Shown: positions 3,616-41,184 of the stretch, piece after piece
Layout of the letters: each line of letters opens with the position of its first letter
Position numbering within the stretch: position 1 is the first letter of the stretch
From: an uncultured Lachnospiraceae bacterium
Lineage (GTDB): Bacteria > Bacillota > Clostridia > Lachnospirales > Lachnospiraceae
Assembly: GCA_949447165.1 (NCBI GenBank)
Contig: CASTAV010000003.1
Location: forward strand, 1-49,415
DNA: 49,415 nt
Direction of reading: 5' to 3'
Notes under the pieces: generated by a model
What the model was told of the DNA's origin: nothing
Seen by the model: the letters and a program-made list of their open reading frames with translations, nothing else
Databases searched by the model: none
Made by a program: the position numbers and the translations under genes

Positions 3616-3906
3616 CTAGCGTTCTTTAAAAATAATCTCATTTTCATAAACGAGGCCTAATTTACTTTTGGCTGTATCTTCTATGTATTCTTTGCTTCCC
3701 ATGTACTCCTTGTAATCAGAAATCTTTTTCTCCCGATTTTTCTCCTCCTCTAACTGTGCTCTTAATTCCGCTTCCCTCGCAATATATTCCATGTCTTTCT
3801 GATACACCCTGAAAATCTGGACTGACATCACGAGCAGTAGAAAAATCACGATATAGGCAATGCTTGCCCGTCCCGCCTGCTTATTCTTTTTTCGATTTCT
3901 GCGCAT
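3616..3906 (-). CDS. septum formation initiator family protein (FtsB/DivIC-like)
   Basis: 96 aa with an N-terminal K/R tail, a single TM helix and a coiled-coil (AELRAQLEEEKNREKKI). It lies between yabQ and spoIIE, as divIC does in B. subtilis. The ORF ends with a TAG stop. Confidence 0.65.
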   Translation of the reverse strand: MRRNRKKNKQAGRASIAYIVIFLLLVMSVQIFRVYQKDMEYIAREAELRAQLEEEKNREKKISDYKEYMGSKEYIEDTAKSKLGLVYENEIIFKER

Positions 3907-19373: not shown

Positions 19374-20738
19374 CTACTTTCTCGCCGCTATCATAGACTC
19401 CAAATTTTTATTCACCTTCTTCAAATAAACGCATGTGACCGCCAAAGCCGCAAGCTCCGCGAGCGGGAACGAAAGCCAGACCGCCTCTAATATTCCCGTC
19501 AGGGAAAGCAGATATGCCGCCGGAAGCAAAATCACAAGCTGGCGTATAACCGACAATACCAGACTGTATACGCTTTTCCCCAATCCCTGAAACACCCCGC
19601 TCGCCACAATGGAAACGCCGGCAAAGAGATAGCATGCGCTTAAAATCCGAAGCGCCGGAACGCCGATTTCAATCATCTGGCCCGATGCATTAAAAAGCAT
19701 TAAAAGCTGTTTCGGCATTACTTCCGCCGTCAAAAACCCTGCAATCATCAACACAACCGCCGCTATCATGCTGCTTTTCATCACCTTCATAATCCTGTCT
19801 TTATATCCGGCTCCGTAATTATACGCCACAATCGGGATTAACCCGTTATTTAACCCAAACACAGGCATAAAGATAAAACTCTGCAATTTAAAGAATACGC
19901 CGAACACAGCCGCCGCCGTTGAAGTAAACCCAAGCAATATCTTGTTCATAAAAAATGTCATAACGGAACCAATCGACTGCATTAAAATCGCCGGAACCGC
20001 AACTTCATAAATCTGCAACAGCGTCTGTTTGTCCGGACGGATTTTTGAAAGCGTAAGATGGATTTCCGTATTTTTTTTCTGGTTGTAATAAAAACCAAAT
20101 ACCATCGCCACGATCTGCCCGAACACAGTCGCCGCCGCCGCGCCTGCAATTCCCATTTTCGGGAAGCCAAACAGCCCAAAAATCAATATCGGGTCAAAAA
20201 TCAGGTTAATCACTGCGCCCGTCGTCTGCGTAATCATCGTGCAGACCGTCCGCCCCGTCGCCTGTAAAAGACGTTCAAAACAAAACTGCCCATACAATCC
20301 AAAACTTGCCGCCGTACAAATCAAAAGATACGTCTTTCCATACGCTATAATTTCCGGTATATCTGTCTGTAGTTCAAAATACAGACCGGAAAAGCATACG
20401 CCGATCAGCAAAAACAGCAGATAATTTGCCCCCGCCAGTATAACGGAATTGCCTGCCGCTTTGTCCACTTCCTCAAACCGCTTTTCGCCCAGCCGTTTCG
20501 AAAGGAGCGCGTTTACCCCGACTCCCGTCCCCGCCGCGACCGCTATCATAAAATTTTGAAGTGGGAACGCCAGAGAAACTGCCGTCAGCGCATATTCATC
20601 AATCTGCGCGACAAATATACTGTCCACAATATTATACAATGCCTGAACCAGCATGGATATTACCATCGGCAGCGAAATATTAACTAACAGTTTATTAACC
20701 GGCATCGTCCCCATCTTGTTCTCTGTCTGCGCTTCCAT
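19374..20738 (-). CDS. MATE family efflux transporter
   Basis: 454-aa 12-TM protein with an N-terminus typical of MATE transporters (PVNKLLVNISLPMVISMLVQALYNIVDSIFV). Confidence 0.8.
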   Translation of the reverse strand: MEAQTENKMGTMPVNKLLVNISLPMVISMLVQALYNIVDSIFVAQIDEYALTAVSLAFPLQNFMIAVAAGTGVGVNALLSKRLGEKRFEEVDKAAGNSVILAGANYLLFLLIGVCFSGLYFELQTDIPEIIAYGKTYLLICTAASFGLYGQFCFERLLQATGRTVCTMITQTTGAVINLIFDPILIFGLFGFPKMGIAGAAAATVFGQIVAMVFGFYYNQKKNTEIHLTLSKIRPDKQTLLQIYEVAVPAILMQSIGSVMTFFMNKILLGFTSTAAAVFGVFFKLQSFIFMPVFGLNNGLIPIVAYNYGAGYKDRIMKVMKSSMIAAVVLMIAGFLTAEVMPKQLLMLFNASGQMIEIGVPALRILSACYLFAGVSIVASGVFQGLGKSVYSLVLSVIRQLVILLPAAYLLSLTGILEAVWLSFPLAELAALAVTCVYLKKVNKNLESMIAARK

Positions 20739-36378: not shown

Positions 36379-36522
36379 CCGTCTTTTTGCTTTTCTTTCG
36401 CTGTCTTTTTTATTTTTCTTTCTCTATCTTTTTTGTTTTTCTTTCGCTGTCCTTTTGCTTTTCTTTCGCTGTCTTTTTACTTTTCTTTCGCTGTCTTTTT
36501 ACTCTTTTCGCTTTTTATGACT
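36379..36522. repeat. six imperfect tandem copies of a ~22-bp unit (gtctttttgcttttctttcgct) in the intergenic region upstream of the vault-like operon
   Basis: Direct reading: gtctttttgcttttctttcgct / gtcttttttatttttctttctcta / tcttttttgtttttctttcgct / gtccttttgcttttctttcgct / gtctttttacttttctttcgct / gtctttttactcttttcgct. Confidence 0.7.
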
Positions 36523-36540
36523 TATTTTTATGCGATTCCA

Positions 36541-37401
36541 TTAAAATTTCTTTTTTATTGTTTTCTTTTTATATCCCGATTTTTTAATCTGCGCTTTGAC
36601 CGTAATGCCTTTTAGCTTCTTTCTAAACTTAATTTTTGCATTTCCTTTTTTGTCTGCTTTTACAGTTTTAGAAGATTTCCCAAGGAACGATTTCTTTGCC
36701 CTGACTTTAACTCTTGCGTTTGGAACTGTTGTTATTTTTAACGTTTTTCCCTTTTTTGAAATTTTTGCCATTACCACCTGCACTTGATAGGTCGCTTTTA
36801 GTTTCCCAATTACAGCTTTAATTGTCACAGAGCCTTCCTTTAATCCTTTTATCTGCCCGGAAGGGGATACGGACGCCACTTTAGGGTTAGAACTGCTGTA
36901 AATTGGCTTTAAGCTTGTAATTTTTCCAAGGGAACCCATAACGGAAGCTTTCTGCGTCAAGGTATGCCCGGCTACCAGCGTTTTTTTCTTTTTTGAAAAT
37001 GTAATTGATTTTGGCTGGTTGGATACAACGGTCACTTTATAAGAAGCGGATAATTTTCCAGTTTTTGCAGTAATTACCGCCACTCCCGGCGCAATTCCTA
37101 ACACTGCGCCCGATGCGGATACAGACGCTGCTTTGGGATTGGAACTGCTGTATGACGGTTTTATATCATTGCGTACCCCCGCATCGTCTTTGACTACCGC
37201 TTTTTGCGTCATAGATTCCCCTGCCATAATTGTAACGCTTGATTTTAAAAATGAAATCTCTTTTGGCTTATGTGACACTGCGATATTAACTGTAGCTCGC
37301 CTGCCGCTTGTCGTCTTCGCAATAATGGTAACACTTCCCACTCCTTTTGCCGTTACCTCCCCAATGCTGTTCACCTCCGCAATGCCAGTATTGGAACTTT
37401 C
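36541..37401 (-). pseudogene. in-frame continuation of the LRR protein past the TAG: two to three Big_2 domains + Lys-rich C-terminal tail (no start codon of its own; the ORF track begins at a GTG)
   Basis: It is in the same frame as the upstream ORF. Reading through the stop gives ...ANTTDAVI*ESSNTGIAEVNSIGEVTAKGVGSVTIIAKTTSGRRATVNIAV, which completes a Big_2 domain. Further Big_2 units follow (SSSNPKAASVSASGAVLGIAPGVAVITAK; SSSNPKVASVSPSGQIKGLKEGSVTIKAV), then a KKGKTLKI...KKKTIKKKF tail. Confidence 0.5.
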
Positions 37402-38733
37402 CTATATAACTGCGTCGGTTGTATTCGCCGGCGTAATGGCATAAGTCAGCAGCCGCGTATCATCTACATTCATATAAATCGTTCCCGCAGAAAATTTAAT
37501 GCTGGAACTTGGAACTGCTTTTAATAAAACAATGGGATTCCCTTTCGCTGACGCATATTTTTCGGCTTCTGATCCGGCATAACATTTTATCGTCACTTCA
37601 TTACTGCATATTTGATAATAATGATCCTGCATATTTATTACGCTGTTCGGAATCAAAATGCTGCTTAGGGCATTGCAACTATTGAACGCCGCATATTCAA
37701 TTTGTGTAACCGTATTTGGAACTGCAACGCTTATAAGAGAACTGCATCCAGAAAAAGCGGTTCTTCCAATCTTTAACAAACGATTTGATAAACCTATCTG
37801 CTTTAAAGACGTACATCCTGCAAATGAAGACTCTTCCAAATACCTTACGCTTGATGGAAGTGTAACTTTTACCAAACTAGAACAGCCGCTAAATGCTTCC
37901 GTGCCAATTGAAATTCCGGTATTGCCATTTGCAATCGAAACATTTTTTAATGAAGAACACTGCTCAAATGCGTTATAACCAATATTGGCATTTGCCCCAA
38001 TGGAAACCGTCGTTAGATTCTTATTACCTGCAAAAGCATATCCGGATATAGACGTATGAACAGATGCACTTACTAAATTTTGACAATTATTAAAAGCACT
38101 TCTGTCCATTTCAACAGATGCCGCAACATTGACGCTTGTTAATCCTGTATTTTCAAAGCTACCTATGCCTAAATATGTAAGCGTTGACGGAAAAACACAG
38201 CCGTTTAACTTTACACAATTTTGAAAAGCATAATATCCTATTGACGTAAGCGCAGTTCCAAGAGAAACGCTTCGCAAATTTCCACAATTAGAAAAAGCGT
38301 ACCTACTTATAGACACTACATTTTTCATTCCATAAATAGCTGTCAGATTTCCGCAGCTCTGAAAACTACCGTAACCGATACTTGTAACCGTATCCGGTAT
38401 ATTAACAGATATCACCCAATCATTATATTCAAAAGCCCAATTACCAATCGCCGTTACTTTTTTTCCGGCTATCATGCTTGGAATCACTACATTTTCTTCT
38501 ACTCCTGTATATTTTGTTATAACAATATTGGAATAATCTCCTTCTTTATATTGCCAAAAACCAAATACGCCGTTTCCTTTCGCCATTTCCACAGTTTCTT
38601 CCCTGACAGTCTCCTCTGCATTCACCATCTCTGTCCCAGAAAAAAACATAAGAACCGCAAGCAACGCAACAAATAATATCCTTTTTTTCATAATCACTTT
38701 CCCCTTTCTACCGATAACCCATTTCTTCCTCAT
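37402..38733 (-). CDS. BspA-type leucine-rich-repeat (LRR_5) cell-surface protein, N-terminal part (ends at an in-frame TAG)
   Basis: The signal peptide KKRILFVALLAVLMFFSGTEMVNA is followed by many ~22-aa repeats of the type I(P/G)..VTSIG..AF..C..L. The ORF stops with TAG at 37402-37404 in the middle of a Big_2 domain. Confidence 0.7.
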   Translation of the reverse strand: MRKKWVIGRKGKVIMKKRILFVALLAVLMFFSGTEMVNAEETVREETVEMAKGNGVFGFWQYKEGDYSNIVITKYTGVEENVVIPSMIAGKKVTAIGNWAFEYNDWVISVNIPDTVTSIGYGSFQSCGNLTAIYGMKNVVSISRYAFSNCGNLRSVSLGTALTSIGYYAFQNCVKLNGCVFPSTLTYLGIGSFENTGLTSVNVAASVEMDRSAFNNCQNLVSASVHTSISGYAFAGNKNLTTVSIGANANIGYNAFEQCSSLKNVSIANGNTGISIGTEAFSGCSSLVKVTLPSSVRYLEESSFAGCTSLKQIGLSNRLLKIGRTAFSGCSSLISVAVPNTVTQIEYAAFNSCNALSSILIPNSVINMQDHYYQICSNEVTIKCYAGSEAEKYASAKGNPIVLLKAVPSSSIKFSAGTIYMNVDDTRLLTYAITPANTTDAVI

Positions 38734-39754
38734 AATCGAGAATCAGATACAAATTCTGCTTCTCATATTCATTTAACAAGCTGTCTTTAAAATCTTCCGG
38801 CTTAATAGAACCATGATACCAATCTTTTTCATCAAAATAATTTTGCAGCGCTTCATCATCAAACAACCGCCCATACCTCGCATAGACTTCATTCCTAGCC
38901 AAACGAAGCTCCTCTTTTCCTAACCCCTCTATATCCGATCTGTCCAGATACCGTGCGCCACTGTCCGGAATTATATAATCTTTCTCTTTTTCCTGCCGTT
39001 TTGTTTCTTTCGTCACTTTCACAGGCTGGCTTCCTTCCACTGTCGTATCCCATTCACAGATATATCCGCCCCTGCTTACTGTTTCATCATCATTCCCAAG
39101 GTCGTCCCACTGCCCTTCATCAATCCGATAACCATACCCGCTCCTTTCTCCATTACAGATTGCCCCGTAGCACTGTCCATAACTTCCATCAGGCTCCCCT
39201 TCTCCCCAATTCGTATAAGAAACAGGCTCTCCCGTCACCCATGTTTCCCATGGCTCCCGAATGCCTATCCAAAGATCACAGTCAAATCCCACATATTGAT
39301 TGATATATCCATAGACTGCTTTCTGTTCTTTTTTGGAGGCAATGGTAAGCAAATGCCCTCCTCTTTCTTCACATTTTTCTTTCGCCTCCTCCCATGTAAT
39401 GCCGCCAGCCTGTTCAAAATAATAATAGCTGTGCCCCTTATATTCGAAACAATCCGTAGGTATATGGAGGCTTTCCGTTTCATTCTGTTTGTTTTCCTGT
39501 TTAGTTTCCCACTCATCTTCCTTTTGGCTCTGCTGTTCTGCCTCCGATTGCTGTTTTGCTTCTTCCATGCGCTTCTGCTCTGCTTTTTGCTCTTTTGATT
39601 CCGCTAATGCAGTTTCCACTTTCGGTTTCAATTTTTTTATCCCATAGCGGACCCCCGCCGCAATCACTGCCGCCGCCACTGCGGCAAATACCGCCATCGC
39701 AAGCAGCATTTTTTTCATATCCTGTTTTCTGTAATTTGATAACTTCAACCTCAT
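38708..39754 (-). CDS. type-II membrane protein with C-type lectin-like domain and C-terminal YARHG domain
   Basis: N-terminus MRLKLSNYRKQDMKKMLL followed by a TM helix and a Q/E-rich coiled-coil. The CTLD is C..KGHSYYYF......W..A...C...GGHL..I.S..E...V.......WIGI......W.W..GEP..YTNW..GEP....C.......W.D..C....YICEW. A YARHG-like segment is present (NEVYARYGRLFDDEALQNYFDEKDWY). Confidence 0.7.
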   Translation of the reverse strand: MRLKLSNYRKQDMKKMLLAMAVFAAVAAAVIAAGVRYGIKKLKPKVETALAESKEQKAEQKRMEEAKQQSEAEQQSQKEDEWETKQENKQNETESLHIPTDCFEYKGHSYYYFEQAGGITWEEAKEKCEERGGHLLTIASKKEQKAVYGYINQYVGFDCDLWIGIREPWETWVTGEPVSYTNWGEGEPDGSYGQCYGAICNGERSGYGYRIDEGQWDDLGNDDETVSRGGYICEWDTTVEGSQPVKVTKETKRQEKEKDYIIPDSGARYLDRSDIEGLGKEELRLARNEVYARYGRLFDDEALQNYFDEKDWYHGSIKPEDFKDSLLNEYEKQNLYLILDYEEEMGYR

Positions 39755-39784: not shown

Positions 39785-40429
39785 TTAAAGAGCGAATATA
39801 AAAAGCATTAGAACTGCTGTATTCAATATAATACCCACAAGCGCCAAAGCCCCTCCCTGCTCCTTTCTGGCTCTCACGCCCAGAATCAATCCAAGAACAG
39901 CCATCCATAAAACTCCCCGAAAAGACAACACGCCTAAAACTACCGCCGCCACTGCTTTTCCATTTACTCTATTCTCCTCTGCTTCTCTTTCCTGCCCAAA
40001 GCCCTGAACATTCTCCTCTGCACTCTCTAAATCAGAAGATGCCGTTTCCGCAGTTTTCGCCTGTAACGCTTCCCCATTTCTGTTTAACCCACAAATATCC
40101 AAATAAACCTTACACCGGACGTCATCCTGATCCGCTCCGGCTTTCCAATACATTTTTGCCAGCCCAAAATTTTGCGCGCAGCAAATACCCGTCATATAGC
40201 ACCAGCCAAGGAAACGGTTGGTTTTATAATCATTCTGTTCGTTCTCGCATACTTCCCGGAAATATACTGATAAACGCGCTTCTATCAAATCTTTATCCGT
40301 ATCCTCTGCCGCATATTTGGCAAGCGTCATAAAGGCATTTCCATCTCCTTTAACGGCAGCTTTGCACAGCCAGTCCAAACAATCTTCTTTATCGCCTTTC
40401 TGCATACAAATCAGGCCAAAAAAATACAT
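39785..40429 (-). CDS. Sel1-like repeat protein, C-terminal part with TM segments (frameshifted continuation of 40411-41184)
   Basis: Sel1-like units (WLCKAAVKGDGNAFMTLAKYAA; AKMYWKAGADQDD) followed by two hydrophobic helices. The ORF start lies inside a T7 tract. Confidence 0.5.
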   Translation of the reverse strand: MYFFGLICMQKGDKEDCLDWLCKAAVKGDGNAFMTLAKYAAEDTDKDLIEARLSVYFREVCENEQNDYKTNRFLGWCYMTGICCAQNFGLAKMYWKAGADQDDVRCKVYLDICGLNRNGEALQAKTAETASSDLESAEENVQGFGQEREAEENRVNGKAVAAVVLGVLSFRGVLWMAVLGLILGVRARKEQGGALALVGIILNTAVLMLFIFAL

Positions 40430-41184
40430 GGATTCTGAATAGCCGCATTCTGCAGGAAACCGGAGATATTCTTCCGCTTTTTTAAGTCCTTTGGAACTTC
40501 TTCCCCTTTTATATACATCTCGCCCAATTCCTGCGAACTTAAAGCATCCCCTTCCTTTACTCCCAGTAATAAAAGCTTTATTTTTTTATCCGTATCCGTC
40601 AGTTGAAATGCTTCTTCCCAATAATGCCGCGCCGCTTCATTTGACTTTTTCTCCTCTTTTTCTAAAAAACGCAAAAACGCTTCCTGAATCTTAGGATTCT
40701 CAATATGTTTTCCATAATCGCTCTTTGTCTGGCTATAATTCTTCACTTTAACAGGAATATCTCCATGAAGCGCGCTTTGTATCTGCGCAAACATTTCATT
40801 AACTGCGCCCGTATTAAAAATATAATTAGCGTCTGTGCCCAGATCTGTAAACGAATCTACACTGATGCAATCCTCATACTTCTCAAATTGCGCTTCATGG
40901 AAGGCGCCCGCTTTATAATAGATACCATCAAAGCCAAATACCATTCCTTCTTTGCCGTTACTTGAAGATACAATAATAAAAATATCTTCTTTTTTTAGAG
41001 ATGGATATTTATATTTTACATTTCCGATTTTATACAACGCGCCCTCTATAACTTTCACAGGAACTTCTTCCCCAAAACTCCACTTATAAACCTCCCCGTA
41101 GTTGTCCCTGAGTATTTTTTCGCAGTAGTTAAGAATTATCCTACAGATTTTCTCCATTTCCTGTCTGGAATAAATGAGATTCAT
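40411..41184 (-). CDS. Sel1-like repeat protein, N-terminal part (reading frame breaks at a T7 homopolymer)
   Basis: 257 aa. The C-terminal region begins Sel1-like repeats (LGEMYIKGEEVPKDLKK). The ORF ends ...CIFLA* within tgtatttttttggcc. A +1 T would fuse it in frame to the downstream ORF as ...PCIFFGLICMQKGDKED. Confidence 0.5.
   Translation of the reverse strand: MNLIYSRQEMEKICRIILNYCEKILRDNYGEVYKWSFGEEVPVKVIEGALYKIGNVKYKYPSLKKEDIFIIVSSSNGKEGMVFGFDGIYYKAGAFHEAQFEKYEDCISVDSFTDLGTDANYIFNTGAVNEMFAQIQSALHGDIPVKVKNYSQTKSDYGKHIENPKIQEAFLRFLEKEEKKSNEAARHYWEEAFQLTDTDKKIKLLLLGVKEGDALSSQELGEMYIKGEEVPKDLKKRKNISGFLQNAAIQNPCIFLA

What the first reader, a model, noticed from the sequence alone, without database searches (positions are those of the whole stretch)
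37390..37416. Single in-frame amber codon splits an LRR-Big_2 surface protein inside a Big_2 domain
The ORF 37402-38733 and the ORF 36541-37374 are in the same frame, separated only by TAG (37402-37404). Read-through yields a contiguous Big_2 domain (...PANTTDAVI*ESSNTGIAEVNSIGEVTAKGVGSVTIIAK...). TAG is used as a genuine stop elsewhere, for example the divIC-like gene at 3616. The site is therefore a recent nonsense mutation (pseudogene or phase-off allele), a sequencing error, or regulated read-through. The downstream part has no start codon or RBS of its own, since the ORF track starts it at a GTG.
Basis: seen in the sequence. Interest (0 to 1): 0.55.

Follow-up and report, generated by a model that had tools for sequence, protein, structure and literature searches.

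The report
Nonsense mutation truncating a secreted LRR protein
One strain of a mouse-gut bacterium carries a real single-base change (TGG to TAG) that cuts a BspA-like adhesin-type protein in half; this is an ordinary strain-specific nonsense allele, not a sequencing error and not recoding.

Summary
On the minus strand, one TAG (window 37402-37404) separates two same-frame open stretches that together encode a signal peptide, a BspA-type LRR_5 solenoid, three Big_2 domains and a very basic C-terminal domain.

The TAG replaces an invariant tryptophan, W430. All 11 homologues aligned (42-100% identity) have W. Near-identical contigs (99.7-99.9% DNA identity) and a syntenic 90% ortholog read TGG.

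It is not a sequencing error. The same TAG occurs in eight fetched contigs from several mouse-gut metagenome assemblies, and a fragment diagnostic of this allele is indexed in 134 collection blocks, against 57 for the intact 716-aa allele.

A second haplotype has TGG but carries an independent 1-bp deletion, giving a 613-aa product. The TAG haplotype also has an A7>A6 frameshift in the neighbouring Sel1 gene.

Nothing supports recoding. TAG ends 11 other ORFs in the window, no tRNA or Rfam element is present, and there is no structure downstream of the stop.

Best reading: a recent strain-specific nonsense allele that yields an LRR-only secreted fragment, or a null. Interest is low.

The parts
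36541..38691 (-). Whole disrupted gene: a 716-codon BspA-like protein with a signal peptide, an LRR_5 solenoid, three Big_2 domains and a basic C-terminal beta-sandwich. An alternative upstream ATG at 38733 would add 14 residues.
   Evidence: Translation. Pfam LRR_5 at 3e-64, Big_2 x3 and Big-like. Colinear intact homologues of 712-767 aa. An intact 716-aa allele, P0127, at about 99.7% DNA identity. AlphaFold2 model of the intact allele with mean pLDDT 87.4.
37402..37404 (-). Premature TAG at codon 430, which is TGG (Trp) in intact alleles. The mutated base is window 37403: A on the coding strand, T on the plus strand.
   Evidence: Sequence. Base-by-base comparison with L001-L007 and L023-L025 gives G at this base. 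The outgroup ortholog L026 reads TGG. W430 is invariant in a 12-sequence alignment.
37402..38691 (-). N-terminal ORF that remains translatable: 429 aa from ATG 38691, or 443 aa from ATG 38733. It holds the signal peptide, the complete LRR_5 region and the first four strands of Big_2 domain 1.
   Evidence: ORF list. The exact 443-aa product is found on 9 contigs, and a 429-aa call is made in L021 and L022. Model strands 397-420 precede the stop, and strand 428-432 contains W430. The ATG at 38691 has an SD-like site with -10.8 kcal/mol pairing.
36541..37401 (-). Orphaned C-terminal remnant of 286 codons plus a TAA stop: the rest of Big_2 domain 1, Big_2 domains 2 and 3, and a 76-aa C-terminal domain with net charge +29. 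It has no signal peptide of its own.
   Evidence: Translation. Pfam Big_2 and Big-like. Charge count. This part has dN/dS 0.18 between the intact allele and the 90% ortholog, so it is constrained when the gene is intact.
37339..37361 (-). Fortuitous SD-like GGGAGG (37356-37361) with an in-frame GTG (37339-37341). Gene callers begin a 266-aa ORF (P0126) here. It is a possible weak re-initiation site.
   Evidence: Anti-SD duplex of -11.2 kcal/mol, against a median of -7.4 for 26 real starts and -2.65 for internal codons. P0126 begins MGSVTIIAK. The same sequence lies within the intact allele's coding region.
37368..37368 (-). Derived non-synonymous change G442S (GGC>AGC), 12 codons after the stop. 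It is a second coding-strand G>A change, 35 bp from the first.
   Evidence: The outgroup has GGC. All seven close homologues have G at this position.
40478..40483 (-). A second lesion on the same haplotype. An A6 run, which is A7 in other strains, frameshifts the neighbouring 466-aa Sel1/DUF4190 gene into ORFs 40411..41184 and 39785..40429.
   Evidence: One search shows A6 in L008, L021 and L022 (TAG haplotype) and A7 in L001-L005 and L023-L028.

Best explanation
The TAG is a real, recent, strain-specific nonsense mutation. A single G>A transition changed TGG (Trp430) to TAG in a chromosomal gene of an uncultured mouse-gut Clostridia bacterium. Relatives are Lachnospiraceae MAGs, and an NCBI MAG with near-identical housekeeping genes is labelled 'Eubacterium sp.'.

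The intact gene encodes a 716-aa secreted BspA-like protein. It has a signal peptide, an LRR_5 solenoid (about residues 45-390), three Big_2 Ig-like domains (about 393-640) and a 76-residue, strongly basic C-terminal beta-sandwich.

Trp430 is the conserved aromatic core residue in the middle strand of the first Big_2 domain. Translation in this strain should therefore stop after residue 429. The product would be an exported LRR-only fragment with an unfoldable stub of 4 of the 9 Big_2 strands, lacking the Ig-like stalk and the basic C-terminal domain.

The downstream 286 codons are an untranslated remnant. At most they are weakly re-initiated, and any such product would have no signal peptide and stay in the cytoplasm. 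Functionally this is a loss-of-function or 'released LRR' allele, that is, a young pseudogene.

Shown by the data: the mutation, its direction, its reality across samples, the intact allele, and a second independent disruption in another haplotype.

Inferred only: export by the signal peptide, an envelope-binding role for the basic C-terminus, and the fate of the truncated product.
For: - Same-frame junction with a single TAG.
- All 7 closest homologues (54-98% identity) have W at the stop column. W430 is invariant in a 12-sequence alignment reaching down to 42% identity.
- DNA of seven contigs at 99.72% identity reads G where the window reads A at 37403. The same holds for three intact-allele contigs at 99.86-99.89% identity over 14-22 kb.
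- A syntenic ortholog 90% identical in protein (L026) has TGG, which polarises the change. The window-derived changes are A64V, W430* and G442S.
- The TAG allele recurs in L008-L012, L021, L022 and L029, which come from different assemblies and projects (PRJEB7759, PRJEB10308, XIAO15-1, ERZ1755865/888, OFGK01). L021 differs from the window by 1 base in 20.8 kb.
- Intact 716-aa alleles are P0127 (52 contigs) and P0128 (9 contigs).
- The AlphaFold2 model (mean pLDDT 87.4) places W430 in strand 428-432 of the first Ig-like domain, with four strands before it and four after.
- The other two Big_2 repeats have Y at the equivalent position (PSYSSSNP, PIYSSSNP).
- The C-terminal part has dN/dS 0.18 in intact lineages.
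- TAG is a normal stop here. It ends 11 other ORFs, for example TAG-GGAGGATCT-ATG at 19374.
Against: - No expression or protein data exist, so the fate of the N-terminal fragment and of the remnant is inferred.
- The TAG haplotype appears at least as common in public mouse-gut assemblies as the intact one: 134 versus 57 index blocks. A second independent truncation also exists. The allele may therefore be tolerated or even favoured rather than simply decaying.
- Only the window and flanks of at most 10 kb could be searched for suppressor tRNAs, not the whole genome.
- Only one substitution (G442S) has accumulated downstream of the stop, so relaxed constraint cannot be demonstrated statistically.
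Confidence: 0.9

Rival explanations
1. Sequencing or assembly error: the true sequence is TGG and the gene is intact.
For: It is a single-base difference from an intact allele at about 99.9% identity. Several of the contigs carrying it have low coverage, for example cov 2.2 in the names of L009 and L011.
Against: The identical TAG appears in eight fetched contigs from several assemblies and projects, built with different assemblers. It is linked to the same private variants, G442S and the Sel1 A6 run. A substitution outside any homopolymer is not a typical systematic error.
Confidence: 0.01
2. Programmed or tolerated amber read-through. This could be a suppressor tRNA, pyrrolysine or near-cognate decoding, so that one gene yields both an LRR-only form and a full-length form.
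For: The downstream frame is still fully open and has only one substitution. The allele is widespread. The whole genome could not be scanned for tRNA-CUA.
Against: - The stop is not conserved. Every homologue and near-identical strain encodes Trp.
- TAG ends 11 of 35 other ORFs in the window, and no stop codon differs between the TAG and intact haplotypes, so there is no sign of TAG avoidance.
- No tRNA is present in the window or in five of the related loci (L001, L021-L023, L025) that extend up to 10 kb on each side of the gene, nor in L024.
- There is no Rfam family hit.
- The 136 nt around and after the stop fold no better than shuffles, z = -0.07.
- The base after the stop is G. In E. coli studies, as I recall them and did not check here, this is not a leaky context.
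Confidence: 0.03
3. Two genuine separate genes: an LRR protein and a Big_2 protein that are normally encoded apart.
For: Gene callers annotate two ORFs, 429/443 aa plus 266/277/228 aa. An SD-like site precedes the GTG at 37341.
Against: - The split falls in the middle strand of a folded Ig-like domain.
- All orthologs are single ORFs of 712-767 aa.
- The downstream ORF lacks a signal peptide.
- Different gene callers pick three different starts for it.
Confidence: 0.01
4. A classical phase-variable on/off switch that reverts at high frequency.
For: Secreted adhesin-like genes are often phase variable. The neighbouring Sel1 gene is switched by a homopolymer length change, A7 to A6.
Against: The TAG site (GTTATATAGGAAAG) has no simple-sequence repeat or inverted repeat. 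The 1-bp deletion in the other haplotype (AGCAGTTCT to AGCATTCT) is also not in a homopolymer. Each state is tied to a distinct haplotype with other fixed differences, rather than mixing on one background.
Confidence: 0.03
5. Adaptive rather than neutral truncation. Loss of the stalk and basic C-terminal domain is selected in the mouse gut, for example to escape IgA or phage, or to release the LRR module. This would parallel inlA premature stop codons in Listeria. It refines the best explanation rather than replacing it.
For: - Two independent truncating lesions on different haplotypes both remove the C-terminal basic domain but keep the LRR region.
- The TAG haplotype is the most frequently indexed.
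- 12 of the 23 substitutions between strains fall in this gene and the adjacent lectin/YARHG gene, which together span about 3.2 kb of the 22 kb compared.
- The LRR part has dN/dS 0.49.
Against: Contig counts mostly reflect how often one clonal strain was sampled in laboratory mice. The same haplotype's housekeeping PGM allele is on 96 contigs. Two events are too few for a test. The same haplotype also carries a frameshift in a neighbouring gene, which suggests general decay of the locus.
Confidence: 0.2

Closest known systems
BspA of Tannerella forsythia and BspA-like LRR proteins (Pfam LRR_5, PF13306), including TpLRR, LrrA and PcpA
   Same: Same domain logic: N-terminal BspA-type LRRs followed by bacterial Ig-like (Big_2) domains. 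PMC7296668 describes BspA as 20 LRRs plus 4 Ig-like domains, with the LRR region mediating protein-protein interactions. LRR_5 matches here at E = 3e-64. The nearest solved structures are LRR_5 'cell surface' proteins of gut bacteria (4fs7, 4gt6, 4h09), TpLRR (6mlx) and PcpA (4cp6).
   Different: The host is a Gram-positive-type Clostridia bacterium, not a Bacteroidota. There are three rather than four Big_2 domains. No type IX secretion C-terminal domain was found; instead there is a 76-aa beta-sandwich with net charge +29 and no Pfam match. No binding partner or adhesion function has been tested. In this window the gene is truncated.
Premature stop codon (PMSC) alleles of internalin A (inlA) in Listeria monocytogenes
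   Same: A secreted LRR protein is cut by natural nonsense or frameshift mutations upstream of its C-terminal attachment region. Several independent truncating alleles circulate alongside intact ones. PMC5131979 reports that 40-50% of food and processing-plant isolates carry PMSCs, and cites Nightingale 2005 for truncated, secreted InlA. Here there are two independent truncations and one intact allele.
   Different: InlA uses a different LRR type with an LPXTG sortase anchor. No LPXTG motif or other recognised anchor was found here, and envelope attachment through the basic C-terminus is only an inference. No phenotype is known. This is an analogy of mechanism, not family membership.
Ordinary young bacterial pseudogenes (a single nonsense or frameshift lesion in an otherwise intact reading frame)
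   Same: There is one lesion. The downstream frame is still open and nearly unchanged. An intact allele exists in sister strains at about 99.9% identity, and there is a second lesion in a neighbouring gene on the same haplotype.
   Different: Nothing material. The only notable points are its high frequency in public mouse-gut assemblies and the parallel truncation in another haplotype.

Membership tests
BspA-like LRR_5 / Big_2 secreted proteins | Tandem BspA-type leucine-rich repeats (Pfam PF13306) | tested here: met
   LRR_5 at E = 3.3e-64, 214.9 bits against a cut-off of 27.7, in 3 stretches. The model shows a solenoid of short strands over residues 45-390. PDB relatives are 4fs7, 4gt6, 6mlx and 4cp6.
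BspA-like LRR_5 / Big_2 secreted proteins | Bacterial Ig-like (Big_2) domains C-terminal to the LRRs | tested here: met
   Big_2 at E = 1.7e-18 in 3 stretches, and Big-like at 8.5e-8. Three nine-strand beta domains span residues 393-640 in the model. In this window the first of them is interrupted by the TAG.
BspA-like LRR_5 / Big_2 secreted proteins | N-terminal secretion signal | tested here: inconclusive
   The sequence reads MKKRILFVALLAVLMFFSGTEMVNA/EE, with a basic n-region, a hydrophobic core and a VNA cleavage-type motif. No signal-peptide predictor was available. Residues 1-43 have pLDDT below 50.
BspA-like LRR_5 / Big_2 secreted proteins | Type IX secretion C-terminal domain, as in Tannerella BspA | tested here: not met
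   No such Pfam domain was found. The C-terminus is a basic (+29) 76-aa beta-sandwich. The spore-former gene context (SpoIIE, YabQ) makes T9SS inapplicable. The protein is therefore BspA-like in architecture but not an ortholog of BspA.
Nonsense-mutation pseudogene / null allele | Orthologs and sister strains carry a sense codon at the site, one base away from the stop | tested here: met
   TGG in L001-L007, L023-L025 and the outgroup L026, and W in all aligned homologues.
Nonsense-mutation pseudogene / null allele | The lesion is reproducible, not an artefact of one assembly | tested here: met
   TAG in L008-L012, L021, L022 and L029, from several assemblies and projects.
Nonsense-mutation pseudogene / null allele | Full-length protein is absent in the carrier strain | not testable with these tools
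   This needs proteomics or Western blots on the strain.
Programmed stop-codon recoding (amber suppression, pyrrolysine, read-through) | The in-frame stop is conserved among orthologs | tested here: not met
   No homologue or sister strain has a stop here; all have Trp.
Programmed stop-codon recoding (amber suppression, pyrrolysine, read-through) | A dedicated tRNA (CUA anticodon), recoding machinery or a cis element | tested here: inconclusive
   No tRNA in the window or in L001 and L021-L025. No Rfam hit. The downstream fold has z = -0.07. The rest of the genome was not available.
Programmed stop-codon recoding (amber suppression, pyrrolysine, read-through) | TAG is rare or avoided as a genuine terminator in the genome | tested here: not met
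   TAG terminates 11 of the 35 other long minus-strand ORFs, followed by normal SD and ATG of the next gene, for example at 19374.
Phase-variable contingency locus | A simple-sequence repeat or invertible element at the switch point | tested here: not met
   The context is GCAGTTATATAGGAAAGTTCC, with no repeat. The lesion is a substitution. The other haplotype's deletion is also outside any homopolymer.
inlA-type natural truncation polymorphism (analogy) | Several independent truncating alleles coexist with an intact allele and remove the C-terminal attachment region | tested here: inconclusive
   Two independent truncations (W430*, and a 1-bp deletion giving 613 aa) coexist with intact 716-aa alleles. 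The attachment role of the C-terminal region is only inferred from its +29 charge.

The most novel reading that the evidence does not exclude
The stop may not be neutral decay but one of at least two convergent 'release' alleles. W430* on this haplotype and a 1-bp deletion at codon ~597 on another each delete the strongly basic C-terminal domain while keeping the LRR module. This would convert an envelope-associated BspA-like protein of a mouse-gut commensal into a shed or absent one, under host (IgA) or phage pressure. It would be a commensal counterpart of the inlA premature-stop polymorphism. A still more exotic reading, low-level amber read-through giving two isoforms, is treated as a rival at about 3%.
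Probability: 0.2. Interest if true: 0.4.

Novelty: new member of a known kind. Interest (0 to 1): 0.15.

Why it matters
For annotation, the two ORFs (37402..38733 and 36541..37374) should be recorded as one disrupted gene, with TGG>TAG at codon 430. They are not two genes and not a recoding event.

Biologically it is a small example of strain-level polymorphism in a secreted LRR/Ig-like protein of an uncultured mouse-gut Clostridia bacterium. Intact, nonsense and frameshift alleles circulate in laboratory-mouse microbiomes at about 99.9% overall identity.

If the truncations proved to be selected, the locus could serve as a natural marker for host- or phage-driven loss of surface structures in a commensal. 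As it stands the finding is ordinary and does not open a new question.

Tried and rejected
- **Phage or plasmid origin.** Megablast of 36400-38900 against the plasmid and phage collections gave no match. The left half of the window is housekeeping and sporulation genes, so the locus is chromosomal.
- **General TAG reassignment.** I scanned all six frames for long same-frame open stretches separated by one stop. On the coding strand the only other TAG case (19374) is a normal gene boundary with GGAGG followed by ATG.
- **Suppressor tRNA.** None was found in the window or in L001 and L021-L025. The two tRNAs in L013 are Tyr-GTA and Leu-TAA in a distant MAG.
- **Recoding RNA element.** There was no Rfam hit over the whole window at gathering thresholds, and the downstream fold is no better than shuffles.
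- **A truncated VirD4-like gene in L022** (401 aa against 438 aa) looked like a third lesion, but it is caused by runs of N in the scaffold.
- **P0136** (572 aa, one contig) looked like a further truncated allele. It carries several odd substitutions and comes from a single 2.6-kb contig, so I did not count it.
- **The species' reference genome.** The genome-contig scan returned only 25-61% relatives in Lachnospiraceae and Bacillota MAGs, so the GTDB representative of this species either lacks the gene or was not matched. Only an NCBI MAG label, 'Eubacterium sp.', was recovered, via housekeeping proteins.
- **A test of relaxed constraint downstream of the stop** was not possible, because only one substitution has accumulated there.
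Full report
**1. Observation**

The gene lies on the minus strand. Plus-strand cta at 37402-37404 is TAG on the coding strand. The two ORFs, 37402..38733 (443 aa) and 36541..37374 (277 aa, GTG start), are as reported.

Pfam on the joined product finds BspA-type LRR_5 (E = 3e-64), three Big_2 stretches and a Big-like domain. The 96-aa divIC-like ORF at 3616..3906 ends in TAG, and TAG terminates 11 of the 35 other long minus-strand ORFs (TAA 17, TAG 12 including this one, TGA 7).

**2. What the codon was**

A protein search with the joined sequence returned full-length colinear homologues of 712-767 aa. In the alignment, all seven closest (54-98% identity) have Trp at the stop column. In a 12-sequence alignment reaching down to 42% identity, W430 is invariant (numbering from the MKKRI start that homologues use).

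At the DNA level, seven contigs that are 99.72% identical over 2.5 kb read G where the window reads A at 37403 (coding strand). Three contigs carrying an intact 716-aa allele do the same, at 99.86-99.89% identity over 14-22 kb.

A syntenic ortholog that is 90% identical in protein (L026) sits in the same order: Pkinase, radical SAM, Sel1, Lectin_C/YARHG, LRR gene. It also has TGG, so the window state is derived.

The two other Big_2 repeats of the same protein have Tyr at the equivalent position (PSYSSSNP, PIYSSSNP), so this is the conserved aromatic position of the domain. An AlphaFold2 model of the intact allele (mean pLDDT 87.4) has these parts:
- a disordered signal and linker region, residues 1-43;
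- an LRR solenoid up to about residue 390;
- three nine-strand Ig-like domains at about 393-476, 477-558 and 559-640;
- a last beta-sandwich at 641-716.

W430 lies in strand 428-432, the fifth of nine strands of the first Ig-like domain.

**3. Real or artefact**

The exact 443-aa truncated product is on 9 contigs in the collection. TAG itself is seen in L008-L012, L021, L022 and L029. These come from different assemblies and projects: PRJEB7759, PRJEB10308, XIAO15-1, ERZ1755865/888 and OFGK01. L021 differs from the window by one base in 20.8 kb.

The 266-aa downstream ORF, which gene callers produce only when the gene is interrupted upstream, is indexed in 134 blocks of the collection. The intact 716-aa protein is indexed in 57. 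A sequencing error is excluded.

These counts largely reflect how often one clonal strain was sampled. The matching housekeeping PGM allele is on 96 contigs and shares the same 224,978-bp longest contig.

**4. Population picture**

Three haplotypes of about 99.9% identity exist:

| Haplotype | Members | Codon 430 | Other lesion | Sel1 A-run |
|---|---|---|---|---|
| H1 | window, L008-L012, L021-L022, L029 | TAG | none in this gene | A6 (frameshift) in L008, L021 and L022 |
| H2 | L001-L007 | TGG | 1-bp deletion at window 36893 | A7 (L001-L005) |
| H3 | L023-L025 | TGG | none (intact) | A7 |

- In H1, the A7>A6 contraction at 40478-40483 splits the neighbouring 466-aa Sel1/DUF4190 gene into 257 aa plus 214 aa.
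- In H2, the deletion (AGCAGTTCT>AGCATTCT) is not in a homopolymer and gives a 613-aa product.
- The two lesions in the LRR gene are on different backgrounds and are therefore independent.
- Both remove the C-terminal 76-residue domain, which has 30 K+R, 1 D+E and a net charge of +29.

Between the intact allele and the 90% ortholog, dN/dS is 0.49 for the LRR part and 0.18 for the Ig-like and C-terminal part. The region lost in this strain is therefore constrained when the gene is intact.

On the window lineage the derived changes in this gene are A64V, W430* and G442S, and no synonymous change could be polarised to this lineage. This fits relaxed constraint, but the numbers are far too small to test.

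**5. Recoding and other rivals**

- **Conservation.** The stop is not conserved in any relative.
- **TAG usage.** TAG is a normal terminator here. No stop codon differs between the TAG and intact haplotypes.
- **tRNA.** No tRNA gene is present in the window or in L001 and L021-L025.
- **RNA elements.** No Rfam family matches anywhere in the window. The 136 nt around and after the stop fold no better than shuffles, z = -0.07.
- **Repeats.** The site has no repeat, so classical phase variation is not supported.
- **Downstream start.** The GTG at 37374 has no usable SD (-1.5 kcal/mol). The in-frame GTG at 37339-37341 follows a GGGAGG (37356-37361) that pairs with the anti-SD as strongly as at real genes (-11.2 against a median of -7.4), although the 14-nt spacing is long. 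Gene callers begin the 266-aa ORF there. The motif is simply the coding sequence for the conserved ...IGEVTAKGVG... and is present in the intact allele too. Any product would lack a signal peptide.

**6. Mechanism**

Translation starts at ATG 38691, which has an SD-like site at -10.8 kcal/mol, and stops at codon 430. The expected product is a 429-aa pre-protein with a signal peptide, a complete LRR_5 solenoid and an unfoldable 35-residue stub of the first Ig-like domain.

It would be exported and then either shed or degraded. It lacks the Ig-like stalk and the basic C-terminal domain. I infer that this domain holds the intact protein on the anionic cell envelope. That inference rests on charge only. 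No LPXTG motif or other recognised anchor was seen, and Pfam found no domain there.

The mutation, its direction and its reality are shown by the data. Export, attachment and the fate of the fragment are inferred.

**7. Comparison with known systems**

In architecture the protein is BspA-like. Tannerella forsythia BspA has N-terminal LRRs followed by four bacterial Ig-like domains, and the LRRs mediate protein-protein interactions (PMC7296668). The nearest solved structures are LRR_5 'cell surface' proteins of gut bacteria (4gt6, 4fs7, 4h09), TpLRR and PcpA. It is not a BspA ortholog, because it has no T9SS C-terminal domain and sits in a spore-former context.

The closest analogue of the polymorphism is the set of premature stop codons in Listeria monocytogenes inlA. 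Those truncate an LRR surface protein upstream of its anchor, are common in some populations and yield secreted, non-functional InlA (PMC5131979 and references therein). This is an analogy, not membership.

**8. Verdict**

This is a real, well-supported, strain-specific nonsense allele (TGG>TAG at W430) of a BspA-like LRR/Big_2 gene in an uncultured mouse-gut Clostridia bacterium. Relatives are Lachnospiraceae MAGs, and the NCBI MAG label is 'Eubacterium sp.'.

It is ordinary in kind. The only mildly interesting points are its high frequency in public mouse-gut data and the independent second truncation in a sister haplotype, which leave open selection for loss (about 20%). Interest is 0.15.

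Noticed in passing
window 39785-41184 (A-run at 40478-40483, minus strand): The neighbouring 466-aa Sel1/DUF4190 gene is split into 257-aa and 214-aa ORFs by an A7>A6 homopolymer contraction. The split occurs only on the haplotype that also carries the TAG (L008, L021, L022). Other strains and the 90% ortholog have A7 and an intact gene.
   Followed up: yes
L001-L007 (for example L001 11799), equivalent to window 36893: A sister haplotype has TGG at codon 430 but an independent 1-bp deletion (AGCAGTTCT>AGCATTCT). It gives a 613-aa frameshifted product that also loses the C-terminal basic domain. It was found on 15 contigs.
   Followed up: yes
window 23062-49077, all on the minus strand: An unusual co-directional gene array lies next to housekeeping genes. 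It contains, in order:
- a 1390-aa Big_2/Flg_new/CarboxypepD_reg protein;
- a protein of about 796 aa with major-vault-protein shoulder and Vault_3 domains;
- an 890-aa CHAT protease-like protein;
- two proteins with no Pfam match;
- ClpP;
- a VirD4/TraG-like coupling ATPase;
- a TY-Chap1/YbjN chaperone-like protein;
- the LRR gene of this finding;
- three C-type-lectin-domain proteins, one of them with YARHG;
- Sel1, radical SAM and Ser/Thr kinase proteins;
- a CTP_transf_like protein, a GH3-like protein and a transglutaminase-like protein.

It looks like a conflict or secretion-type system, but I did not analyse it.
   Followed up: partly
window 37368-39200: Strain-to-strain substitutions are concentrated in the LRR gene and the adjacent Lectin_C/YARHG gene: 12 of the 23 substitutions against L023 fall in about 3.2 kb of the 22 kb compared. 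Six lie within the 348-aa lectin gene alone, which suggests diversifying selection or a small recombination tract.
   Followed up: partly
window 36541-36768 (residues 641-716 of the intact protein): The C-terminal 76-residue domain has 30 Lys/Arg, 1 acidic residue and net charge +29. It is predicted as a confident beta-sandwich and has no Pfam match. Many Lys positions are invariant among homologues. It is a candidate non-covalent cell-envelope binding module.
   Followed up: partly
window 1-22756: The left half of the window is ordinary chromosomal content of a spore-forming Firmicute: TilS, SpoIIE, a divIC-like gene, YabQ, an HU-like gene, phosphoglucomutase, the CCA-adding enzyme, ProRS, two MatE genes, MMPL and TetR. 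The locus is therefore chromosomal, not phage or plasmid. There were no megablast hits in the phage or plasmid collections.
   Followed up: yes
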